From: Gemmatimonadales bacterium
Lineage (GTDB): Bacteria; Gemmatimonadota; Gemmatimonadetes; Gemmatimonadales; JACORV01
Length of the DNA: 64,000 nucleotides
Assembly (NCBI GenBank): GCA_035502185.1
Contig: DATJUT010000101.1
Coordinates: 24,300-88,299 of the forward strand
Direction of reading: 5' to 3'
Made by a program: the position numbers and the translations under genes. A model generated the notes under the pieces. The model made no database searches and was not told the DNA's origin. It saw only the letters and a program-made list of their open reading frames with translations. This document shows positions 46,556-61,752 of this stretch, piece after piece; the stretch's first letter is position 1; each line of letters opens with the position of its first letter.

Positions 46556-49486
46556 CTAGTCCCGCGGCTCGACCCGCACGGCGGTCACCTTGAACTCCGG
46601 GATCTTGGCATAGGGGTCGAGCACGGTGTTGGTGAGCAGGTTGGCGGCCGCCTCGCGGAAGTGGAACGGCACGAACACCTGCCGGGGCCGCACCCGGTCC
46701 GAGAGGCGCGCGGCGATCACCATCGAGCTGCGCCGCGAGGTCACGCGCACTTCCTGGCCGTCGCGGACGCCGAGGGCGGCGGCGTCGGCCGGATTCAGCT
46801 CGATGGTCGGCACCGGCTCGCGCGAGTCGAGCCCCTTGGAGCGGCGCGTCATCGTCCCGGTGTGCCAGTGGTAGAGCTGCCGCCCGGTATTCATGACGAA
46901 CGGGTACTCGTCGTCCGGCAGCTCGGCGGGCGGCAGGTATTCCACGGCGACCATCGTCCCGCGCCCGTCGGCGGTGGGGAACCGGTCGCCGAACAGATAG
47001 TCGGTGCCCGGACTCGCGGCGTCGGGGACCGGGTACTGGAGGCCGGCCATGTCGAGGCGTCCATAGGTCACGCCGGCCCACGACGGCGTGACCGACGCGA
47101 TCTCCCGCATCACGCTCTCGGCGTCCCGGAACGGCGTCCGGAACCCCACCCGCTCCGACAGCTCGAGCAGGATGTCGAGATCGGCGCGGGCCCGACCGGG
47201 CGGCGTGCACGCCCTGCGCACCCGCTGGATGCGGCGCTCGGTGTTGACGAAGGTCCCCTCCTTCTCGGCGAACGAGGTGCCGGGCAGCACCACGTCGGCG
47301 AAGCGGGCCGTCTCGGTGAGGAACAGGTCCTGGACGGCCAGGAACTCGAGCCCGAGGAACCAGTCCTCCGCGTGGGCGACGTTGGGGTCGGAGATGACGG
47401 GGTTCTCCCCGAAGATGTACATGCCCGCCACCGGCGACTCGGCGCCGACGATCTCCGTGACCTTGAGGCCCGGCGTGAGGGACAGCGCCTCGTCCCCGAC
47501 GCCCCAGGCGGCGGCGAACCGGTGGCGGACCGCGGGGTCGTTGACCGGCTGGTAGTCGGTGTACGACATCGGGATCCCGCCGACGTCGGACGCGCCCTGC
47601 ACGTTGTTCTGGCCGCGGATCGGGATCATCGCGGCGCCCCACCGCCCGATCATCCCGGTGGCGAGGATGAGGTTGAGGAGGGCGGTGACGATGTCGGTCC
47701 CGGTCGAGTGCTGGGTGAGGCCCATCGCCCACAGGGTCGAGGTCCGCGGCCCCCGCGCGTACGCCTCGGCCGCCCGCGCGATGTCCGCGGCCTTCACCCC
47801 GGTGATGGCCTCCGCCCGCTCCAGCGTGTAGGGCTGCACCGCGGCCGAGACCGCCTCGAAGCCGTGGGTGCGCCGGCCGATGAAGTCCCGGTCGTGGAGC
47901 CCGCTCGCCACGATGTGGCGCAGCATCGCGTTGAAGAGCACCACGTCGGTGCCCGGCAGGAGCTGCAGGTGGATGTCCGCCCGGCGCGCCAGCTCGATCC
48001 CGCGGGGCTCGGCCACGATGAGCGTGGCGCCGCGCCGCTGGGCGCGCTTCAGGGCGGCGCCGAAGACGGGGTGCGCCTCGGTCACGTTGGCGCCGGCGAC
48101 GAAGATGACGTCGGCCTCGTGCTCCACCTCGCGCATCGAGCCCGAGGCGGCGGACGTGCTGAGCGCGCGCTGCATCGCCGCCACCGACGACGAGTGGCAC
48201 AGCCGGGTGCAGTGGTCCACGTTGTTGGTGCCGAACCGGCCGCGGAAGATCCGCTGCAGGACGTAGTTCTCCTCGTTGGTGCACTTGGCCGAGCAGAAGA
48301 CGGCCAGCGCCTCGGGGCCGCGCTCGCGGTGGAGCCGCACCAGCTCCTGGGCGGCCAGCTCCAGGGCCTCGTCCCAGGTCGCCTCGCGGAACGGCTCGTA
48401 CCAGTCGGCCGGGGTCGCCACCCGGTCGCGCACGTCCTCCGCGCCCCGCGGGGCGCGGGCGATCTCGCCGAGCGACTTGCCGACCGAGCGCACCGGCGGC
48501 CGGGCCTTGGCGCGAGCACCCTCGGCCTCGATCGTGAGCCACGGGCCCCGGCGGCGCACGCCCGACGCGGCGCCCTCCCACACCCACCGGTCCCCGCGCT
48601 TCGTCCAGCCGCGGCGGATCAGCGGCGCGGTGAGGCGGTCGCGGTGCTGGGGGAAGTCGTAGCCGAACCGGCCCTTCACGCAGGTGGAGCCGAGGTTGGG
48701 GGTGTCCTCCTCGATCCACGGGCTGGTGACCCGGACCACCTGCTCGTCGGCCACGTGGAGGTCCACCTGGCACCCGACGCCACAGTAGGGGCAGACCGAC
48801 CGGACGACCCGGTCCGGCTCCGCGATCTGGCGGGCCGTGAACTTCTCGGCCGGCAGCACCTCGTGGATCGCCCCGGTGGGGCAGACCCGCACGCACTCGC
48901 CGCACCAGGTGCAGGCCGCGTGGTCGGGATCGCCGTCGCCGCCCACGACGATCTCGGCGTGCTCGCCGCGCTGCGCCACGTCCAGCACGCCCACCACCTG
49001 GATGTCGGCGCACGCCCGGACGCAGCGCGTGCACAGGATGCAGGTGCTCATGTCGTGCCGGATCATCGGGTCGCCGGGGCGCTCGTCGCCGTGCCGGAGG
49101 CCGAGGGCGTGCTCGCGCTGTGGCCGCGGGCGCACGCCGTAGCGGCGGACCAGCCGCTCGAACTCGTTCGGGTGCTCGCCGTCGCCGATCAGGCGGTCGG
49201 TGGGGTAGCGCTGGAGCAGGAGGTCGAGCACGCTGCGGCGGTTGGCGACGGCGGCCGGCGTCTCCGTGCCGACCACCATGCCGCTCTGGGCGGCGGTGGC
49301 GCACGCGGCGACGAGCTTGGGCGCGCCTTCGACGCTCACCAGGCAGATCCGGCACGAGCCGACGACCGGCAGCGTCGGGTACCAGCACAGCGTCGGGATC
49401 TCGATGCCGAGGGACCGCGCGGCCTCGAGGATCGTCGTGTCTTCGGCCACGTGCACCGGCCGGCCATCCACCGTCAGCGTGATCAT
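46556..49486 (-). CDS. Formate dehydrogenase alpha subunit-like molybdopterin oxidoreductase with N-terminal Fe-S domains
   Basis: N-terminal 2Fe-2S (CRIC) and 4Fe-4S motifs (CILCTRCVRAC, CTWCGECVRVCPTGA). MopB core with Cys (LCHSSS) and no in-frame TGA. Start 49486, or 49513/49540. Confidence 0.9.
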   Translation of the reverse strand: MITLTVDGRPVHVAEDTTILEAARSLGIEIPTLCWYPTLPVVGSCRICLVSVEGAPKLVAACATAAQSGMVVGTETPAAVANRRSVLDLLLQRYPTDRLIGDGEHPNEFERLVRRYGVRPRPQREHALGLRHGDERPGDPMIRHDMSTCILCTRCVRACADIQVVGVLDVAQRGEHAEIVVGGDGDPDHAACTWCGECVRVCPTGAIHEVLPAEKFTARQIAEPDRVVRSVCPYCGVGCQVDLHVADEQVVRVTSPWIEEDTPNLGSTCVKGRFGYDFPQHRDRLTAPLIRRGWTKRGDRWVWEGAASGVRRRGPWLTIEAEGARAKARPPVRSVGKSLGEIARAPRGAEDVRDRVATPADWYEPFREATWDEALELAAQELVRLHRERGPEALAVFCSAKCTNEENYVLQRIFRGRFGTNNVDHCTRLCHSSSVAAMQRALSTSAASGSMREVEHEADVIFVAGANVTEAHPVFGAALKRAQRRGATLIVAEPRGIELARRADIHLQLLPGTDVVLFNAMLRHIVASGLHDRDFIGRRTHGFEAVSAAVQPYTLERAEAITGVKAADIARAAEAYARGPRTSTLWAMGLTQHSTGTDIVTALLNLILATGMIGRWGAAMIPIRGQNNVQGASDVGGIPMSYTDYQPVNDPAVRHRFAAAWGVGDEALSLTPGLKVTEIVGAESPVAGMYIFGENPVISDPNVAHAEDWFLGLEFLAVQDLFLTETARFADVVLPGTSFAEKEGTFVNTERRIQRVRRACTPPGRARADLDILLELSERVGFRTPFRDAESVMREIASVTPSWAGVTYGRLDMAGLQYPVPDAASPGTDYLFGDRFPTADGRGTMVAVEYLPPAELPDDEYPFVMNTGRQLYHWHTGTMTRRSKGLDSREPVPTIELNPADAAALGVRDGQEVRVTSRRSSMVIAARLSDRVRPRQVFVPFHFREAAANLLTNTVLDPYAKIPEFKVTAVRVEPRD

Positions 49487-49558
49487 CGACGCGCTTGGAA
49501 GGGTCACGGGCATTGTACACCGGAGGAGGGGAACCGGCAAAATCGTCGCTCCAACCTA

Positions 49559-49586
49559 TTGCGCGTCCGAAGGACTCTTATATATT
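49559..49586 (+). promoter_or_regulatory. Sigma-70-like promoter TTGCGC-N16-TATATT
   Basis: Read directly in a low-GC intergenic patch. It would drive a transcript with a leader of about 220 nt ahead of the microORF. Confidence 0.35.
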
Positions 49587-49815
49587 GGCGCTTAAGGGTT
49601 TGCGCACTGATGGAGAAACCTGTTTGGAATTAGCCCCAAAATCTCTCGACATCGCAATGTCGATCGCGCGTCTGGCGCCGGTCGCGGCGTCCCTTGTCGG
49701 CTCGCGCGATGTCTCCTCCGACCTCCGCTCTTCCACCACCTACAGCGCTGATCATGGTGTCTGACCGTCGGCCACTTCGGGCCGCCGGAATGTTTCACCA
49801 TTTCGAGGAGGCTGT

Positions 49816-49878
49816 ATGGCGATGAAGAAGAAGAAGGCCGCCAAGAAGACGGCGAAGAAGTCCAAGAAGAAGAAGTAG
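49816..49878 (+). CDS. Lysine-rich 20-aa microprotein MAMKKKKAAKKTAKKSKKKK
   Basis: GAGGAGG Shine-Dalgarno sequence 4 nt upstream. ATG, 13 Lys codons all AAG, TAG stop. Followed by a hairpin. Below the ORF-track length cutoff. Confidence 0.4.
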   Translation: MAMKKKKAAKKTAKKSKKKK

Positions 49879-49896
49879 TTTCTGCTTGGATGCACA

Positions 49897-49920
49897 GGGG
49901 CCGGCGATTTTGCCGGCCCC
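49897..49920 (+). terminator. Hairpin GGGGCCGGC-gatttt-GCCGGCCCC downstream of the microORF
   Basis: Perfect 9-bp GC stem. The downstream sequence is only modestly T-rich (GCGCATTTCC). Confidence 0.5.
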
Positions 49921-49945
49921 GCGCATTTCCGTATATTGCGCCGCC

Positions 49946-51712
49946 GTGATCCTCCACCACGAGCAGCGCAACCGCGACCTGGCGGTGGACGGCCCCTCCG
50001 CGCGACTCGGCCGCGACCCGACCCTGGAGCTCAGCTTCGATCCCGACGACGACGTCGTCAGCGCGGTCCACGCCCGCGTGTGGCGCGACGCGGACGGGTC
50101 GTGGTGGCTGGAAGACCTGGGCAGCACCAACGGCACCTGGCTCAACGGCCGGCGGATGGCCGCGGCCGAACCGCTGCGCTCCGGGGACCGGTTCACGCTC
50201 GGGCAGCGCGGGCCGGCGCTGCGCGCGACCGTGCCGGGCGAGCCCGTGCGCACCCGGGTCGAGCGCGCGGCGGACGCGGCGCCGCCCGTTCTCAAGCTGC
50301 GCCGGGTCGCGGGCGGGGAAGACCTCGTGGCCCTGGGCGCCGAGATCCTGCTCGGCCGCGCCGCCACCTGCACCATCCCGCTCCGGACCGTGGCCGACAC
50401 GGTGGTCTCGAAGCGGCACGCGACGGTCGCGTTCGACGAGGCCGGGGCCGCGACGGTCACCGACCTCCACAGCCGCAACGGGACCTACGTCAACGGGCAG
50501 CGGGTCCGCGGGCCGGCGATGCTGAAGCTGGGCGACCGCATCATGCTCGGCTGGCACGGCCCGCTGTTCGAGGTGCGCGTCCTCGGCACCACCACCCTCC
50601 CGGAGGGGCAGGGCGCCGAATACCGGCCGCAGCTGCAGCCGGCCAAGACGCTGGGGGGCATCGTCCAGGCGGCCCGCGGCGAGGCCGGGACGGCGCACAG
50701 CGCGCGGGCGGCGGTGTTCGCCCGCTCGCTCGCCCGGCAGCTGGCCCGGGAATCGTCGGCCGCGCTCAAGGTGGCGACCGCCGTCGTCGTCGCCGCGCTG
50801 GTGCTTGCGGTGCTGCTGGTCTACCGCTCGGCGTCGCGGGAGCGCGCCGAGGCGGATGAGCGGCTCGCCAGCGCCGAGCGGGCGTTCGCCGCCCAGCTGC
50901 AGGCGGCGAGCGAGTCGCAGCTGCGCGCCGACTCGGTCATCATGCGGCTCCGGCACGATCTCCAGGTCGCCCGGAGCTCGAGCGTCCCGCGCGCCGTCGT
51001 CGAGAGCCTTGAGGCCCAGCTGAGCGGCGCGGAGCAGCGCGCCGGCGGCGCGCTCGGCCCGACCACCGTGGCGGACTTCTCGCGGGTCTCGGAGGAGAAC
51101 CAGGCCGCGGTGGGCATGGTGATCGCCCGCTATCCGTTCGACTCGGTGATGGGCAGCGGCTTCGTGATCACGCCCTCGGGCTACCTGCTGACCAACGGAC
51201 ACGTGGTGCGGGACTCGAGCCGGGGTCGGCCGCGGGCCATCGAGGTCGTGATGGCGGACACCCGGACGCCGCTCCTGGCGGACGTCGTCGCCACCAGCGA
51301 CGTGCCCGATCAGGACATCGCCGTGGTGAAGATCAGGGGGTACCACGGGGCGGTGGTCCGCGCCGTCGATTGGGCGGGTCGCGGCGTGCGCCAGGGCGCG
51401 GCCGCGGCGCTGATCGGCTTCCCGCGCGGCACGCAACTGGCCTTCGATCCCAACGGTTTCGTCCGGACCACGATGTTCGCGGGCGTCATCGCCAAGGCCA
51501 CCAGCGAGTGGATCCAGTTCGCCGGCTCCACCGACGCCGGCTCGTCCGGCAGTCCGGTGTTCGACGCCGCGGGCGCCGTCATCGGCATCCACTACGGCGC
51601 CTTCGCGGCGCCCGGCGGCGAGAGTGGCTCGCTCCCGCTCGGCTTCGCCATCCCCATCGGGCGGGCACGACGCTGGCTGCCCCCCGAAGCCAAGGCGGAG
51701 CTGGGCCTGTGA
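49946..51712 (+). CDS. FHA-FHA-TM-trypsin-like serine protease
   Basis: Two FHA domains (GRDP...STNGTWLNG and GRAA...SRNGTYVNG). One TM helix (VATAVVVAALVLAVLLVY) and a coiled coil. S1-type triad TNGHVV / DIAVVK / GSSGSPVF. The start is GTG 49946 or TTG 49886. Confidence 0.8.
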   Translation: MILHHEQRNRDLAVDGPSARLGRDPTLELSFDPDDDVVSAVHARVWRDADGSWWLEDLGSTNGTWLNGRRMAAAEPLRSGDRFTLGQRGPALRATVPGEPVRTRVERAADAAPPVLKLRRVAGGEDLVALGAEILLGRAATCTIPLRTVADTVVSKRHATVAFDEAGAATVTDLHSRNGTYVNGQRVRGPAMLKLGDRIMLGWHGPLFEVRVLGTTTLPEGQGAEYRPQLQPAKTLGGIVQAARGEAGTAHSARAAVFARSLARQLARESSAALKVATAVVVAALVLAVLLVYRSASRERAEADERLASAERAFAAQLQAASESQLRADSVIMRLRHDLQVARSSSVPRAVVESLEAQLSGAEQRAGGALGPTTVADFSRVSEENQAAVGMVIARYPFDSVMGSGFVITPSGYLLTNGHVVRDSSRGRPRAIEVVMADTRTPLLADVVATSDVPDQDIAVVKIRGYHGAVVRAVDWAGRGVRQGAAAALIGFPRGTQLAFDPNGFVRTTMFAGVIAKATSEWIQFAGSTDAGSSGSPVFDAAGAVIGIHYGAFAAPGGESGSLPLGFAIPIGRARRWLPPEAKAELGL

Positions 51713-61263: not shown

Positions 61264-61292
61264 ATTATAGAGCAGCGAGATAGGGTGGTCAA
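61264..61292 (-). promoter_or_regulatory. Sigma-70 promoter of rho (TTGACC-N17-TATAAT)
   Basis: The minus strand reads TTGACCaccctatctcgctgctcTATAAT. This implies a rho leader of about 135 nt. Confidence 0.55.
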
Positions 61293-61367
61293 GAGCGGCG
61301 CGCGCCGGACGCGCGCGCTCGTCGGGCGGCCGGGGCCGGCGGGCCGGCGATCTCCGGTTCCGGAATA

Positions 61368-61395
61368 TTGCGTGGGTCTCGTAACTCGTTATATT
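61368..61395 (+). promoter_or_regulatory. Sigma-70-like promoter TTGCGT-N16-TATATT
   Basis: Read directly, about 70 nt upstream of ATG 61465. Confidence 0.4.
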
Positions 61396-61464: not shown

Positions 61465-61752
61465 ATGCCGCTGCCACAGCCGCGCCCCAGCGCCCCCGAT
61501 CCCACCGAGCCGGTGTTGCACGACCTGGCCCCCATCCGCTACGAGGGGGTCGCCATCGGCGTCCAGCTCGGCGTGCGCAGGAGCGAAGACGGCATCTGGC
61601 GCGGCCGGCTGCACTTCTTCGAGAGCGGCGCGATCGACGAGCGGGTCACCGCCGAGATCTTCTGCGCCACTTCGGAGCAGGACCTGTGGCAGGCGGTGCG
61701 CGACCTCCGGGAGCACCACCTTCGCGACCTCTACCGCTCGCTGGCGACGTAG
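61465..61752 (+). CDS. Hypothetical 95-aa protein
   Basis: ATG with an upstream GGAG. MPLPQPRPSAPDPTEPVLHDLAPIRYEGVAIGVQLG.... Coding-type codon bias and no recognised motif. Confidence 0.5.
   Translation: MPLPQPRPSAPDPTEPVLHDLAPIRYEGVAIGVQLGVRRSEDGIWRGRLHFFESGAIDERVTAEIFCATSEQDLWQAVRDLREHHLRDLYRSLAT

What the first reader, a model, noticed from the sequence alone, without database searches (positions are those of the whole stretch)
49559..49920. Self-contained transcription unit encoding a 20-aa poly-lysine microprotein
The microprotein MAMKKKKAAKKTAKKSKKKK (49816..49878) has a strong GAGGAGG Shine-Dalgarno sequence. All 13 of its Lys codons are AAG. It is followed by a perfect 9-bp GC hairpin (49897..49920) and preceded by a TTGCGC-N16-TATATT promoter-like box about 230 nt upstream. 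The AAG run stands out sharply against the GC-rich background.

Extremely basic microproteins of this size include ribosome-associated peptides: eukaryotic eL41, Thermus THX, and the mycobacterial bS22 and bL37. Alternatively, the ORF could be a Lys-codon-sensing leader for the downstream FHA-protease gene, or a nucleic-acid or polyphosphate binder. It is too short for standard gene callers.
Basis: partly seen in the sequence, partly recalled or inferred. Interest (0 to 1): 0.55.

Follow-up and report, generated by a model that had tools for sequence, protein, structure and literature searches.

The report
Conserved unannotated oligolysine microprotein gene
A 20-codon gene for an almost pure lysine/alanine peptide, missed by gene callers, is conserved as a protein in dozens of Gemmatimonadales relatives, and look-alikes occur in unrelated bacteria, so it is probably a real small nucleic-acid-binding protein of unknown target rather than a chance ORF or a leader for the next gene.

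Summary
ORF 49816..49878 encodes MAMKKKKAAKKTAKKSKKKK, with 12 Lys rather than 13. It has SD GAGGAGG, a promoter-like box at 49559..49586 and a very stable hairpin after the stop.

The window is from a Gemmatimonadales bacterium. All 11 orthologous GTDB loci that include the upstream DNA keep the ORF. So do 40 metagenome loci. Together they give 18 peptide variants of 17-27 aa. Every ORF length difference is in frame, substitutions fall at wobble positions, and the stop is TAG or TAA.

Two RNA hairpins bracket the SD and ORF, and both show compensatory changes. The downstream FHA-protease gene has its own conserved TATATT-N7/8-GTG, which looks like a leaderless promoter. This argues against a cis-acting leader.

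The 222-nt leader is a relic of a deleted tldD-pmbA pair. In other relatives the microORF sits directly behind pmbA.

Stand-alone MA(A)KKKKAAKKTAKK+basic-tail ORFs of 15-28 aa also occur in contigs of 32-71% GC. They use different synonymous codons and carry their own terminators.

Pfam, NCBIfam, Rfam, PDB and a 15-billion-protein collection give no match. The peptide is not bS22, bL37 or Thx.

Best reading: a trans-acting polycationic microprotein. Its target (ribosome, DNA or other) is unresolved.

The parts
49559..49586 (+). Promoter-like box: -35 TTGCGC (49559-64), 16-nt spacer, -10 TATATT (49581-86)
   Evidence: Sequence. Conserved in all fdhA-adjacent relatives. Homologous to the promoter in front of tldD in type-2 relatives, where the -35 is TTGACC or TTGACG. 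The same pattern occurs at 61368 in front of another ORF; 2 found against 0 expected.
49587..49764 (+). 5' leader, a relic of an in situ deletion of tldD-pmbA. It keeps the tldD SD/start remnant (GGAGA 49612-16, TTG 49624) and the pmbA 3' end with its stop (TGA 49762-64).
   Evidence: Alignments A3 and A4. The relic frame is open in 22 of 27 variants, but the ratio of in-frame to out-of-frame indel events is not significant.
49765..49788 (+). 5' stem-loop: CCGUCGGCC / ACUUCG / GGCCGCCGG. It sits directly after the upstream (relic) stop codon, with its 3' end 16 nt before the SD.
   Evidence: Present in all 52 loci that carry the unit. Compensatory changes at stem positions 3, 5, 7 and 8 (hand-registered table).
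49789..49804 (+). Conserved single-stranded linker AAUGUUUCACCAUUUC between the hairpin and the SD
   Evidence: Conserved across both context types. Function unknown.
49805..49811 (+). Shine-Dalgarno sequence GAGGAGG
   Evidence: GGAGG is invariant in 47 unique sequences, 4-9 nt before the start codon.
49816..49878 (+). microORF encoding MAMKKKKAAKKTAKKSKKKK*
   Evidence: There are 18 peptide variants of 17-27 aa. All ORF length differences are in frame. Wobble-only changes include GCC/GCG/GCA, ACG/ACC and rare AAA. The start is ATG or GTG and the stop is TAG or TAA.
49879..49890 (+). Spacer UUUCUGCUUGGA. CUUGGA pairs with codons UCC AAG (49861-66) of the ORF.
   Evidence: Per-sequence folds with shuffled-spacer controls give mean z -1.8 over 32 variants. 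The partner covaries (ccgcgaag/CUUUCGCGG, cggcgaag/CUUCGCCG). The pairing is absent in about 7 variants.
49888..49928 (+). 3' stem-loop, core 49897-49920. Presumed terminator or 3' stabiliser of the microORF transcript.
   Evidence: dG -31.1 kcal/mol, z -4.1. The core is invariant. The basal pair A49890-U49926 changes to C-G in 10-11 sequences. There is no free U tract, and the hairpin is unique in the window.
49932..49937 (+). -10 box TATATT of the downstream gene, 8 nt before its GTG. In this clade the -35 TTGCCG (49910-15) lies inside the hairpin.
   Evidence: TATATT-N7/8-GTG is kept in all protease-linked loci, while the hairpin-to-box spacer varies by up to about 28 nt.
49946..51712 (+). 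FHA-FHA-TM-coiled-coil-trypsin-like protease gene. It has a GTG start, no SD, and is probably leaderless.
   Evidence: Pfam, translation. It lies directly downstream in nearly all unit-carrying loci with enough DNA (of 52), at 48-100% aa identity. Indels that are not multiples of 3 upstream of the GTG show that stretch is non-coding.
46556..49513 (-). Divergent formate-dehydrogenase-alpha-like molybdopterin oxidoreductase gene. The start codon is uncertain.
   Evidence: Pfam, tblastn synteny.

Best explanation
The locus is a genuine small gene.

Transcription (inferred). In this lineage a sigma-70-type promoter (TTGCGC-N16-TATATT) starts transcription near 49593. That promoter was inherited from a deleted tldD-pmbA operon. 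The transcript would have a leader of about 222 nt. Its distal part is a conserved stem-loop placed right after the old pmbA stop codon. The transcript ends at, or is stabilised by, a -31 kcal/mol stem-loop 10-18 nt after the stop. The SD and ORF therefore sit on an RNA segment of roughly 165 nt bracketed by two hairpins.

Translation (inferred). Ribosomes load at GAGGAGG and the ATG and make a 20-aa peptide with 12 Lys and no acidic residue.

Action (inferred). The peptide acts in trans as a polycation that binds a polyanion. Its small residues A8, A9, T12 and A13 would line one face of a helix. It resembles a free-standing copy of the Lys/Ala-rich 'AKKA' tails found on bacterial H1-like proteins and on some ribosomal and HTH proteins. 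My split for the target is ribosome/rRNA about 0.25, DNA/nucleoid about 0.2, and polyphosphate or other about 0.1.

Shown here: the ORF, SD, hairpins and promoter box exist and are conserved; conservation is at the protein level; the downstream gene has its own conserved promoter-like box.

Inferred: transcription start and end, translation, and every statement about binding.
For: Coding:
- All 11 unbiased GTDB orthologous loci that include the upstream DNA keep the SD, start, frame and stop, while the neighbouring protease drops to 61% identity.
- With the metagenome loci there are 52 loci and 18 peptide variants. Every ORF length difference is a multiple of 3, and changes fall at wobble positions.
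- Only one Arg appears in all variants. AAG to AGG is a single transition, and the genome uses Arg 4.5 times more than Lys.

Protein-level family:
- 22 further microORFs of 15-28 aa in contigs of 32-71% GC start M-A/P-(A)-KKKKA(A/V)KKTAKK.
- They use AAA/AAG, GCN and ACN freely, and most are followed by a classical terminator.
- 62 of 119 sampled occurrences of the motif sit at the N-terminus of an ORF of at most 28 aa.

RNA frame:
- 5' hairpin covariation.
- 3' hairpin stability and one covarying basal pair.

Promoter:
- Conserved, and homologous to the tldD promoter of relatives.
- The same type occurs elsewhere in the window.

Independence from the next gene:
- TATATT-N7/8-GTG is conserved in front of the protease.
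- L037 and L043 keep the microORF without the protease.

Nucleic-acid context of the motif:
- The same 12-mer occurs in a uS2 C-terminal tail, in an N-terminal tail of a HARE-HTH protein, and in long K/A-rich proteins.
- Neighbours in low-GC contigs include hpf, rsfS and an rlmI-like gene.
Against: - No expression, translation or binding data exist for any member.
- The metagenome loci were found with the peptide motif itself. Cross-lineage identity of the 12-aa core is therefore partly ascertainment, and convergence of low-complexity K/A peptides is not excluded. I could not run a permuted-motif control.
- In relatives the unit lies 0-10 nt behind pmbA with no room for a promoter. 'Self-contained' therefore holds only for the window's clade.
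- The hairpin has no free U tract, so termination efficiency is unknown.
- The unit is flanked by peptidase genes in nearly all Gemmatimonadales-type loci, which could mean a local rather than a general function.
- Lys-only composition differs from every known tiny ribosomal protein.
- The slow, order-preserving evolution differs from H1-like repeat proteins, which vary quickly (Hc2: PMC2848022).
Confidence: 0.5

Rival explanations
1. Cis-acting leader peptide. Translation of 12 Lys codons senses charged tRNA-Lys, or ribosome traffic in general, and controls read-through of the hairpin into the FHA-protease gene. This is the type of mechanism used by his/trp attenuators and by the polycysteine short ORFs of mycobacteria.
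For: - 12 of 20 codons are Lys in a genome where Lys is rare.
- A strong hairpin lies between the ORF and the next gene.
- Linkage to the protease gene is very tight in nearly all unit-carrying loci with enough DNA, down to 48% identity.
- The spacer after the stop pairs with ORF codons, so translation would remodel the RNA.
- One family member (L132) lies 385 nt upstream of a lysA-like decarboxylase gene.
- Precedent: bioRxiv 10.1101/834739.
Against: - The protease gene keeps its own TATATT-N7/8-GTG and has no SD, so read-through RNA would translate it poorly.
- No antiterminator alternative to the hairpin was found.
- The protease has no link to lysine metabolism.
- L037 and L043 keep the ORF without the protease.
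- In other lineages the microORF is followed by a terminator and often by a convergent gene.
- Leader peptides conserve codon content, not an exact 15-residue sequence.
Confidence: 0.1
2. Locally acting partner or substrate of the flanking peptidases. The ancestral order is tldD-pmbA-microORF-FHA/trypsin protease. The peptide, for example after phosphorylation of its invariant Thr12, would bind the cytoplasmic FHA domains or be a Lys-rich substrate or inhibitor.
For: - The unit is flanked by peptidase genes in nearly all Gemmatimonadales-type loci. PmbA is retained in L043 without the protease, and the protease is retained in the window clade without pmbA.
- Thr12 is invariant in the 11 unbiased loci.
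- FHA domains bind phosphothreonine (established knowledge).
- The two FHA domains are cytoplasmic, N-terminal to a TM segment.
Against: - The pattern is what simple decay of an ancestral A-B-C synteny predicts.
- TldD carries a Tat-type signal (SRREF) and the trypsin domain lies beyond the TM segment. Both protease activities are therefore probably periplasmic, while the peptide has no signal sequence.
- Members in other lineages have unrelated neighbours such as murB, ddl, hpf, secA, rsfS and mraZ.
Confidence: 0.1
3. The RNA is the functional product. It would be a stable, hairpin-bracketed small RNA or a processing/stability element of the tldD-pmbA transcript, with the ORF secondary (dual-function) or incidental.
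For: - Nucleotide conservation is extreme, including both hairpins, the 16-nt linker and the spacer-ORF pairing.
- The terminator core sequence is invariant over deep divergence, which is unusual for a plain terminator.
Against: - Rfam gives no match.
- Only in-frame length differences occur in the ORF, while the flanks carry 1-2-nt indels.
- The SD and start are strictly kept.
- Members in other lineages share the peptide but not the nucleotides or the hairpins.
Confidence: 0.07

Closest known systems
Tiny polybasic ribosomal proteins: bS22 and bL37 (mycobacteria and others), Thx (Thermus), eL41 (eukaryotes/archaea)
   Same: - Similar size (20-33 aa) and extreme positive charge.
- Stand-alone genes that are too short for, or often missed by, gene callers.
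- eL41 is a single basic helix (my knowledge).
- Some family members sit next to hpf or rsfS.
   Different: - No sequence similarity beyond K-runs, and no NCBIfam, Pfam or PDB match. The same PDB search readily finds bS22, bL37 and Thx.
- The composition is Lys-only with Ala/Thr. The known proteins are roughly half Arg and carry His, Gly or aromatic residues.
- Ribosome binding is untested.
Bacterial histone-H1-like Lys/Ala-rich proteins and tails (Chlamydia Hc1/Hc2, Pseudomonas AlgP, PAKKA tails of mycobacterial HupB/Ku)
   Same: - K/A(/T/P) low-complexity composition that is kept as Lys even in GC-rich genomes.
- The identical 12-mer occurs inside long K/A-rich proteins and in uS2 and HARE-HTH tails.
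- These proteins bind DNA or polyP (PMC3553676, PMC9239181, PMC2848022).
   Different: - The microprotein is a single 17-27-aa unit rather than a tandem repeat array or an appendage to a folded domain.
- Its residue order is strictly conserved and its length is nearly fixed. H1-like repeats expand and contract rapidly (PMC2848022).
Amino-acid-sensing leader peptides (his, trp and other attenuators; polycysteine leaderless sORFs of mycobacteria, bioRxiv 10.1101/834739)
   Same: A short ORF dominated by one codon type, followed by a stable hairpin and then another gene.
   Different: - The downstream gene has its own conserved promoter-like box and a GTG with no SD.
- No terminator/antiterminator alternative was found.
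- The target gene is unrelated to lysine.
- The exact peptide sequence is conserved, and it occurs in other genomic contexts.

Membership tests
bS22 (AURKAIP1/COX24, DUF1713) | Sequence match to the family | tested here: not met
   No Pfam or NCBIfam hit at E<=10. No PDB hit, although bS22 itself is found easily. blastp-short gives only K/R-run matches.
bS22 / bL37 / Thx / eL41 | Stoichiometric binding in a defined rRNA pocket of the ribosome | not testable with these tools
   Needs ribosome purification with top-down mass spectrometry, or cryo-EM.
bL37 and Thx | Sequence match to the family | tested here: not met
   K/(K+R) is 1.0 against 0.55 (bL37) and 0.46 (Thx).
Leader-peptide transcription attenuator | Run of codons for the sensed amino acid in a short ORF | tested here: met
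   12 of 20 codons are Lys.
Leader-peptide transcription attenuator | The ORF lies in the leader of the regulated gene, with no promoter in between | tested here: not met
   A conserved TATATT-N7/8-GTG lies between the hairpin and the protease gene in all protease-linked loci. The inference is from sequence only; no TSS data exist.
Leader-peptide transcription attenuator | Mutually exclusive terminator and antiterminator structures coupled to ribosome position | tested here: inconclusive
   No antiterminator appears in single-sequence or alignment folds. A spacer-ORF helix exists, but it stacks on the hairpin rather than competing with it.
Leader-peptide transcription attenuator | The regulated genes belong to the metabolism of the sensed amino acid | tested here: not met
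   The downstream gene is an FHA-FHA-TM-trypsin protease. The only exception is L132, with a lysA-like gene downstream.
Bacterial H1-like Lys/Ala-rich proteins | Lys/Ala-rich low-complexity composition with few Arg | tested here: met
   12 K, 4 A, 1 T, 1 S and 0 R. The same 12-mer occurs in long K/A-rich ORFs.
Bacterial H1-like Lys/Ala-rich proteins | Tandem repeat array or tail of at least about 50-200 aa, variable in copy number | tested here: not met
   Length is 17-27 aa in 52 loci, and residues 1-15 are nearly invariant.
Bacterial H1-like Lys/Ala-rich proteins | Non-specific DNA (or polyP) binding | not testable with these tools
   Needs EMSA, ChIP or localisation experiments.
Intrinsic (Rho-independent) terminator | GC-rich stem-loop directly followed by a U tract | tested here: inconclusive
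   The stem is very strong, but only UUU follows and it is absorbed into the extended stem. The consensus scan did not call it on the + strand.
Known RNA families (Rfam 15) | Covariance-model match | tested here: not met
   0 hits at gathering score over the whole window. Only noise (E>=0.85) appears over 49400-50050.

The most novel reading that the evidence does not exclude
MA(A)KKKKAAKKTAKK+basic-tail peptides form one ancient, order-conserved microprotein family. It would run from ultra-small low-GC (probably Patescibacteria) genomes to Gemmatimonadota and be invisible to all annotation. It would have a specific conserved target, most attractively a new eL41-like single-helix ribosomal protein or ribosome-bound factor. 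Alternatively it could be a genetically encoded 'oligolysine polyamine' for nucleoid or polyP charge control.
Probability: 0.25. Interest if true: 0.85.

Novelty: new variant of a known kind. Interest (0 to 1): 0.62.

Why it matters
Proteins below about 30 aa are systematically missing from genome annotation. None of ten family peptides tested is present in a collection of 15 billion predicted proteins.

This is a 15-28-aa polycation with strict residue order. It is kept across Gemmatimonadales while a neighbouring gene falls to 48% identity, and it recurs in unrelated bacteria with its own SD and terminator. That makes it a concrete, testable candidate for a missing component of the translation or nucleoid machinery.

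The locus also gives a clean natural example of three things:
- how an operon deletion (tldD-pmbA) turned a distal cistron into a stand-alone unit;
- a probable leaderless GTG promoter architecture in Gemmatimonadota;
- a short mRNA segment bracketed by two conserved hairpins.

There is a practical consequence for proteomics. Trypsin-based workflows cannot see this peptide, so any experimental search must use top-down or non-tryptic methods.

Tried and rejected
- Rfam at gathering and at permissive thresholds: nothing.
- Pfam and NCBIfam on two peptide variants: nothing. Searches failed because a 19-aa input is too short.
- PDB sequence search: nothing. The search was validated as able to find tiny basic r-proteins.
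- Exact look-up of 10 family peptides among 15 billion proteins: none present. One search failed on length.
- The search for homologous proteins refuses queries under 40 aa, so no annotation names could be retrieved.
- The look-up of encoding contigs for the protease: not on record.
- Viral contigs scanned with the motif: 0 hits.
- Literature string search for the motif: 0 papers.

Ideas considered and dropped:
- Classical attenuation. I looked for an antiterminator in folds of the leader, ORF and hairpin and found none.
- A promoter between the 5' hairpin and the SD, or one using TTGACC (49761-66) as -35. The spacing and -10 do not fit, and 'TGACC' turned out to be the relic pmbA stop plus the hairpin foot.
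- The relic ORF in the leader (TTG 49624..TGA 49764) as a second conserved small ORF. The frame is open in 22 of 27 variants, but independent indel events are about 4 in frame against 3 out of frame, and open frames are expected at 75% GC. Not significant.
- An N-terminally extended ORF from ATG 49790 (MFHPFEEA...). It is in frame only in some clades, so it was rejected.
- A REP-like repeat. The hairpin is unique in the window.
- All-AAG codon choice as a signal. It is explained by 98% AAG usage.
Full report
OBSERVATION. The sequence at 49816..49878 reads ATG GCG ATG (AAG)4 GCC GCC (AAG)2 ACG GCG (AAG)2 TCC (AAG)4 TAG, which translates to MAMKKKKAAKKTAKKSKKKK*. That is 12 Lys codons, not 13. 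GAGGAGG lies at 49805-49811, 4 nt before the ATG. The hairpin GGGGCCGGC/GATTTT/GCCGGCCCC is at 49897-49920. TTGCGC-N16-TATATT is at 49559-49586. An (AAG)4 run never appears in 100 shuffles of the window. The all-AAG choice is not informative, because AAG is 98% of Lys codons in the window's high-GC3 ORFs. Lys itself is only 2.0% of residues there, against 9.1% Arg, so a peptide that is 60% Lys and 0% Arg is the real anomaly.

CONTEXT. The region is a 432-nt gap in DNA of about 75% GC. On one side is a divergent formate-dehydrogenase-alpha-like gene on the minus strand, 46556..~49513. On the other is a plus-strand gene, 49946..51712, for a protein with two FHA domains, a TM segment, a coiled coil and a trypsin-like domain. 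A scan of one genome per GTDB species with that protein returned 12 full orthologues. All are from Gemmatimonadales MAGs, at 61-90% identity.

CONSERVATION, UNBIASED SET. Eleven of those loci include the upstream DNA, and all eleven contain the microORF. The SD, the start and the first 15 residues are invariant. Differences are in-frame indels (SKKKK, SAKKKK, TAKKKK, PAAKRKKK; MAM against MA or MAA), wobble changes (GCC/GCG, GCG/GCA/GCC) and TAG against TAA. By contrast, the non-coding stretch between the hairpin and the protease GTG carries 1-nt indels.

EXTENDED SET. Forty of these carry the same unit: 5' hairpin, SD, microORF and 3' hairpin. With the GTDB loci and the window that makes 52 loci and 18 peptide variants of 17-27 aa. 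All keep the frame. Two use a GTG start, two carry a single AAA codon, and only one Arg occurs anywhere. The FHA-protease gene follows directly in nearly all loci with enough DNA, down to 48% identity. L037 and L043 keep the microORF without it. These 40 loci were selected by the peptide motif, so they show breadth and variation, not independent proof of core conservation.

RNA ELEMENTS.
- A 9-bp stem-loop (49765-49788) is present in all loci. Double-sided changes occur at four stem positions, for example CCGCCGGCC/GGUCGGCGG, CCACCGGCC/GGCCGGUGG, CCGCCGGGC/GCCCGGCGG and CCGCCGGACC/GGUCCGGUGG. The table is hand-registered, because MAFFT shifted the clades.
- A 16-nt linker (AAUGUUUCACCAUUUC) between the hairpin and the SD is conserved. 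Its function is unknown.
- The 12-nt spacer after the stop usually pairs with whichever GC-rich codons the ORF has, and it covaries with them. Mean z is -1.8 against shuffled spacers, and the pairing is absent in about 7 variants.
- The 3' stem-loop extends to 49888-49928 with dG -31 kcal/mol and z -4.1. Its core is invariant, and a basal A-U pair changes to C-G in 10-11 sequences.
- The 3' stem-loop has no free U tract, so its efficiency as a terminator cannot be judged from sequence.
- Rfam has nothing here, and the hairpin is not a repeated element.

TRANSCRIPTION. TANWWT hexamers are rare in the window; there are 12 in all. Three plus-strand TATATT boxes stand out:
- 49581, preceded by TTGCGC at 16 nt.
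- 61390, preceded by TTGCGT at 16 nt and followed by an SD-led ORF.
- 49932, followed after 8 nt by the protease GTG, which has no SD.
The pattern TTGCGY-N15-18-TATATT occurs twice against 0 expected. TATATT-N7/8-GTG is retained in front of the protease in every linked locus, even where 4-28 extra bases separate it from the hairpin. I read this as the protease's own promoter producing a leaderless GTG mRNA. That is an inference; leaderless RTG starts are established in other GC-rich phyla.

ORIGIN OF THE LEADER. Several relatives (L008, L048, L084, L108, L123, L126, L136, L147, L043) have a same-strand tldD-pmbA pair upstream. There pmbA ends 0-10 nt before the 5' hairpin. The promoter box and the next ~70 nt of the window (49556-49630) align with the promoter, 5' UTR and start (GGAGA-N8-TTG, Tat-type SRREF signal) of tldD in those loci, where the -35 is the better TTGACC or TTGACG. 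Window 49728-49764 aligns with the last codons of pmbA, and TGA 49762-64 is the pmbA stop of L008. The ancestral order was therefore fdhA(-) | P-tldD-pmbA-hairpin-microORF-hairpin | P-protease. The window's clade deleted tldD-pmbA in place, leaving a 222-nt relic leader. It also shows that 'self-contained' is a derived state: in relatives the microORF is either the distal cistron of tldD-pmbA or is processed from that transcript. The relic frame is mostly open but not significantly so.

WIDER FAMILY. Twenty-two other metagenome hits are ORFs of 15-28 aa that begin M-A/P-(A)-KKKKA(A/V)KKTAKK and end in a short basic tail. They come from contigs of 32-71% GC. They use AAA/AAG, GCN and ACN freely, so what is shared is the peptide, not the DNA. 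Most have an SD or a conserved 5' region, and a classical stem-plus-U terminator. Their neighbours differ: ddl or murB upstream with hpf and/or secA downstream in several low-GC contigs, and elsewhere rsfS, an rlmI-like gene, mraZ, a lysA-like gene and others, often convergent. The remaining 57 hits are long K/A-rich ORFs or basic tails of larger proteins. These include a uS2 with a C-terminal tail and a HARE-HTH protein. A published analysis notes an Ala/Lys-rich tail on uS19 of Parcubacteria (PMC9297842). No viral contig has the motif. Taxonomy of the non-Gemmatimonadales contigs is inferred from GC content, gene order and sample type only.

WHAT IT IS NOT.
- Not bS22, bL37, Thx or eL41. There are no model hits and no PDB hit, although the same search finds those proteins at E of 1e-10 to 1e-13. 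Only K-run matches appear, and the peptide has no Arg, against 45-59% Arg among the basic residues of those proteins.
- Unlikely to be a leader for the protease. The protease has its own promoter-like box, no antiterminator was found, the gene is unrelated to lysine, the ORF persists without the protease, and other lineages have terminators followed by convergent genes.
- Not merely RNA. The ORF shows in-frame-only variation, and conservation across lineages is at the peptide level.

MECHANISM AND ODDS. I put about 0.9 on this being a translated gene. Its product is a peptide with 12 Lys and no acidic residue, whose small residues (A8, A9, T12, A13) would line one face of a helix. The strict residue order and near-fixed length argue for a defined binding partner. 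The Lys/Ala chemistry matches the 'AKKA' tails that bind DNA, RNA or polyP in other bacterial proteins (PMC3553676, PMC9239181). I commit to a trans-acting polyanion binder at 0.5 overall, split into ribosome/rRNA about 0.25, DNA about 0.2 and other about 0.1. The rivals are a cis leader (0.1), a local partner of the flanking peptidases or FHA domains (0.1) and a primarily RNA function (0.07). The two hairpins most plausibly delimit and stabilise a short mRNA segment, so that the microORF can be expressed at a different level from tldD-pmbA. That is also an inference.

NOVELTY AND LIMITS. The family is absent from Pfam, NCBIfam, Rfam and the PDB, and ten of its peptides tested are absent from a 15-billion-protein collection. 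The motif string is absent from the searchable literature. It is a new family within a known general kind: tiny polybasic proteins and Lys/Ala-rich nucleic-acid binders. The main weaknesses are:
- no expression data;
- ascertainment bias in the cross-lineage set;
- no permuted-motif control;
- no test of binding.

Noticed in passing
window 49587-49764; L008, L048, L123: The 5' leader of the microORF is a deletion relic of a tldD-pmbA operon. The tldD promoter, SD and start, and the last codons and stop of pmbA, are still recognisable. The fused frame (TTG 49624..TGA 49764, 46 codons) stays open in 22 of 27 variants.
   Followed up: yes
window 49932-49948 and all protease-linked loci: The FHA-FHA-TM-trypsin protease gene starts with GTG 7-8 nt after a conserved TATATT and has no SD. 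This suggests a leaderless GTG mRNA in Gemmatimonadales.
   Followed up: partly
window 61368-61395 (+) and 61269-61297 (-): There is a second TTGCGT-N16-TATATT promoter-like box sharing the extended TATTGCG motif with 49557. It is followed by a ~65-nt leader and an SD-led 95-codon ORF (ATG 61466..61752). A near-consensus divergent TTGACC-N17-TATAAT lies on the minus strand.
   Followed up: partly
window 49556-49565, 49598-49612, 49934-49941: TTGCGC-containing motifs recur three times in the intergenic region, including a palindrome GCGCA-C-TGCGC at 49601-49611. These could be operator sites for a regulator shared by the divergent genes.
   Followed up: no
window 49879-49890 with 49861-49866; 32 related sequences: The spacer after the microORF stop is complementary to GC-rich codons inside the ORF, and it covaries with them. 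This forms a helix that encloses the stop codon just 5' of the terminal hairpin.
   Followed up: partly
L132 5058-6768 (oriented so the microORF is on the + strand): A 36-aa, 25-Lys member (MAKKKKKAAKKTAKKAKKPVKKKAKKKAKKKAKKKK) lies 385 nt upstream of a same-strand diaminopimelate/ornithine-decarboxylase-family (lysA-like) gene. It is a possible genuine Lys-sensing leader.
   Followed up: no
L052, L054, L067, L152: Low-GC contigs encode a small unannotated domain (…GFLYYVDxxGNVxxAKMARGG, no Pfam hit) fused to the same K/A-rich tail. The domain is duplicated in tandem in L152.
   Followed up: partly
L045, L049, L057, L081, L088, L089, L098, L105, L125, L146: A recurrent 220-250-aa protein (MFREYGVEFHIDGWDKKARVGFEF…, acidic middle, long K-rich C-terminal tail) occurs in ~50% GC contigs. 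It has no Pfam match.
   Followed up: partly
window 49512-49517 (-): A TACAAT box overlaps the first ATG (49513) of the fdhA-like ORF. TGTACA is conserved in relatives. The real start is therefore probably the downstream ATG of ATGATCACG (about 49489), where the 2Fe-2S domain begins.
   Followed up: no
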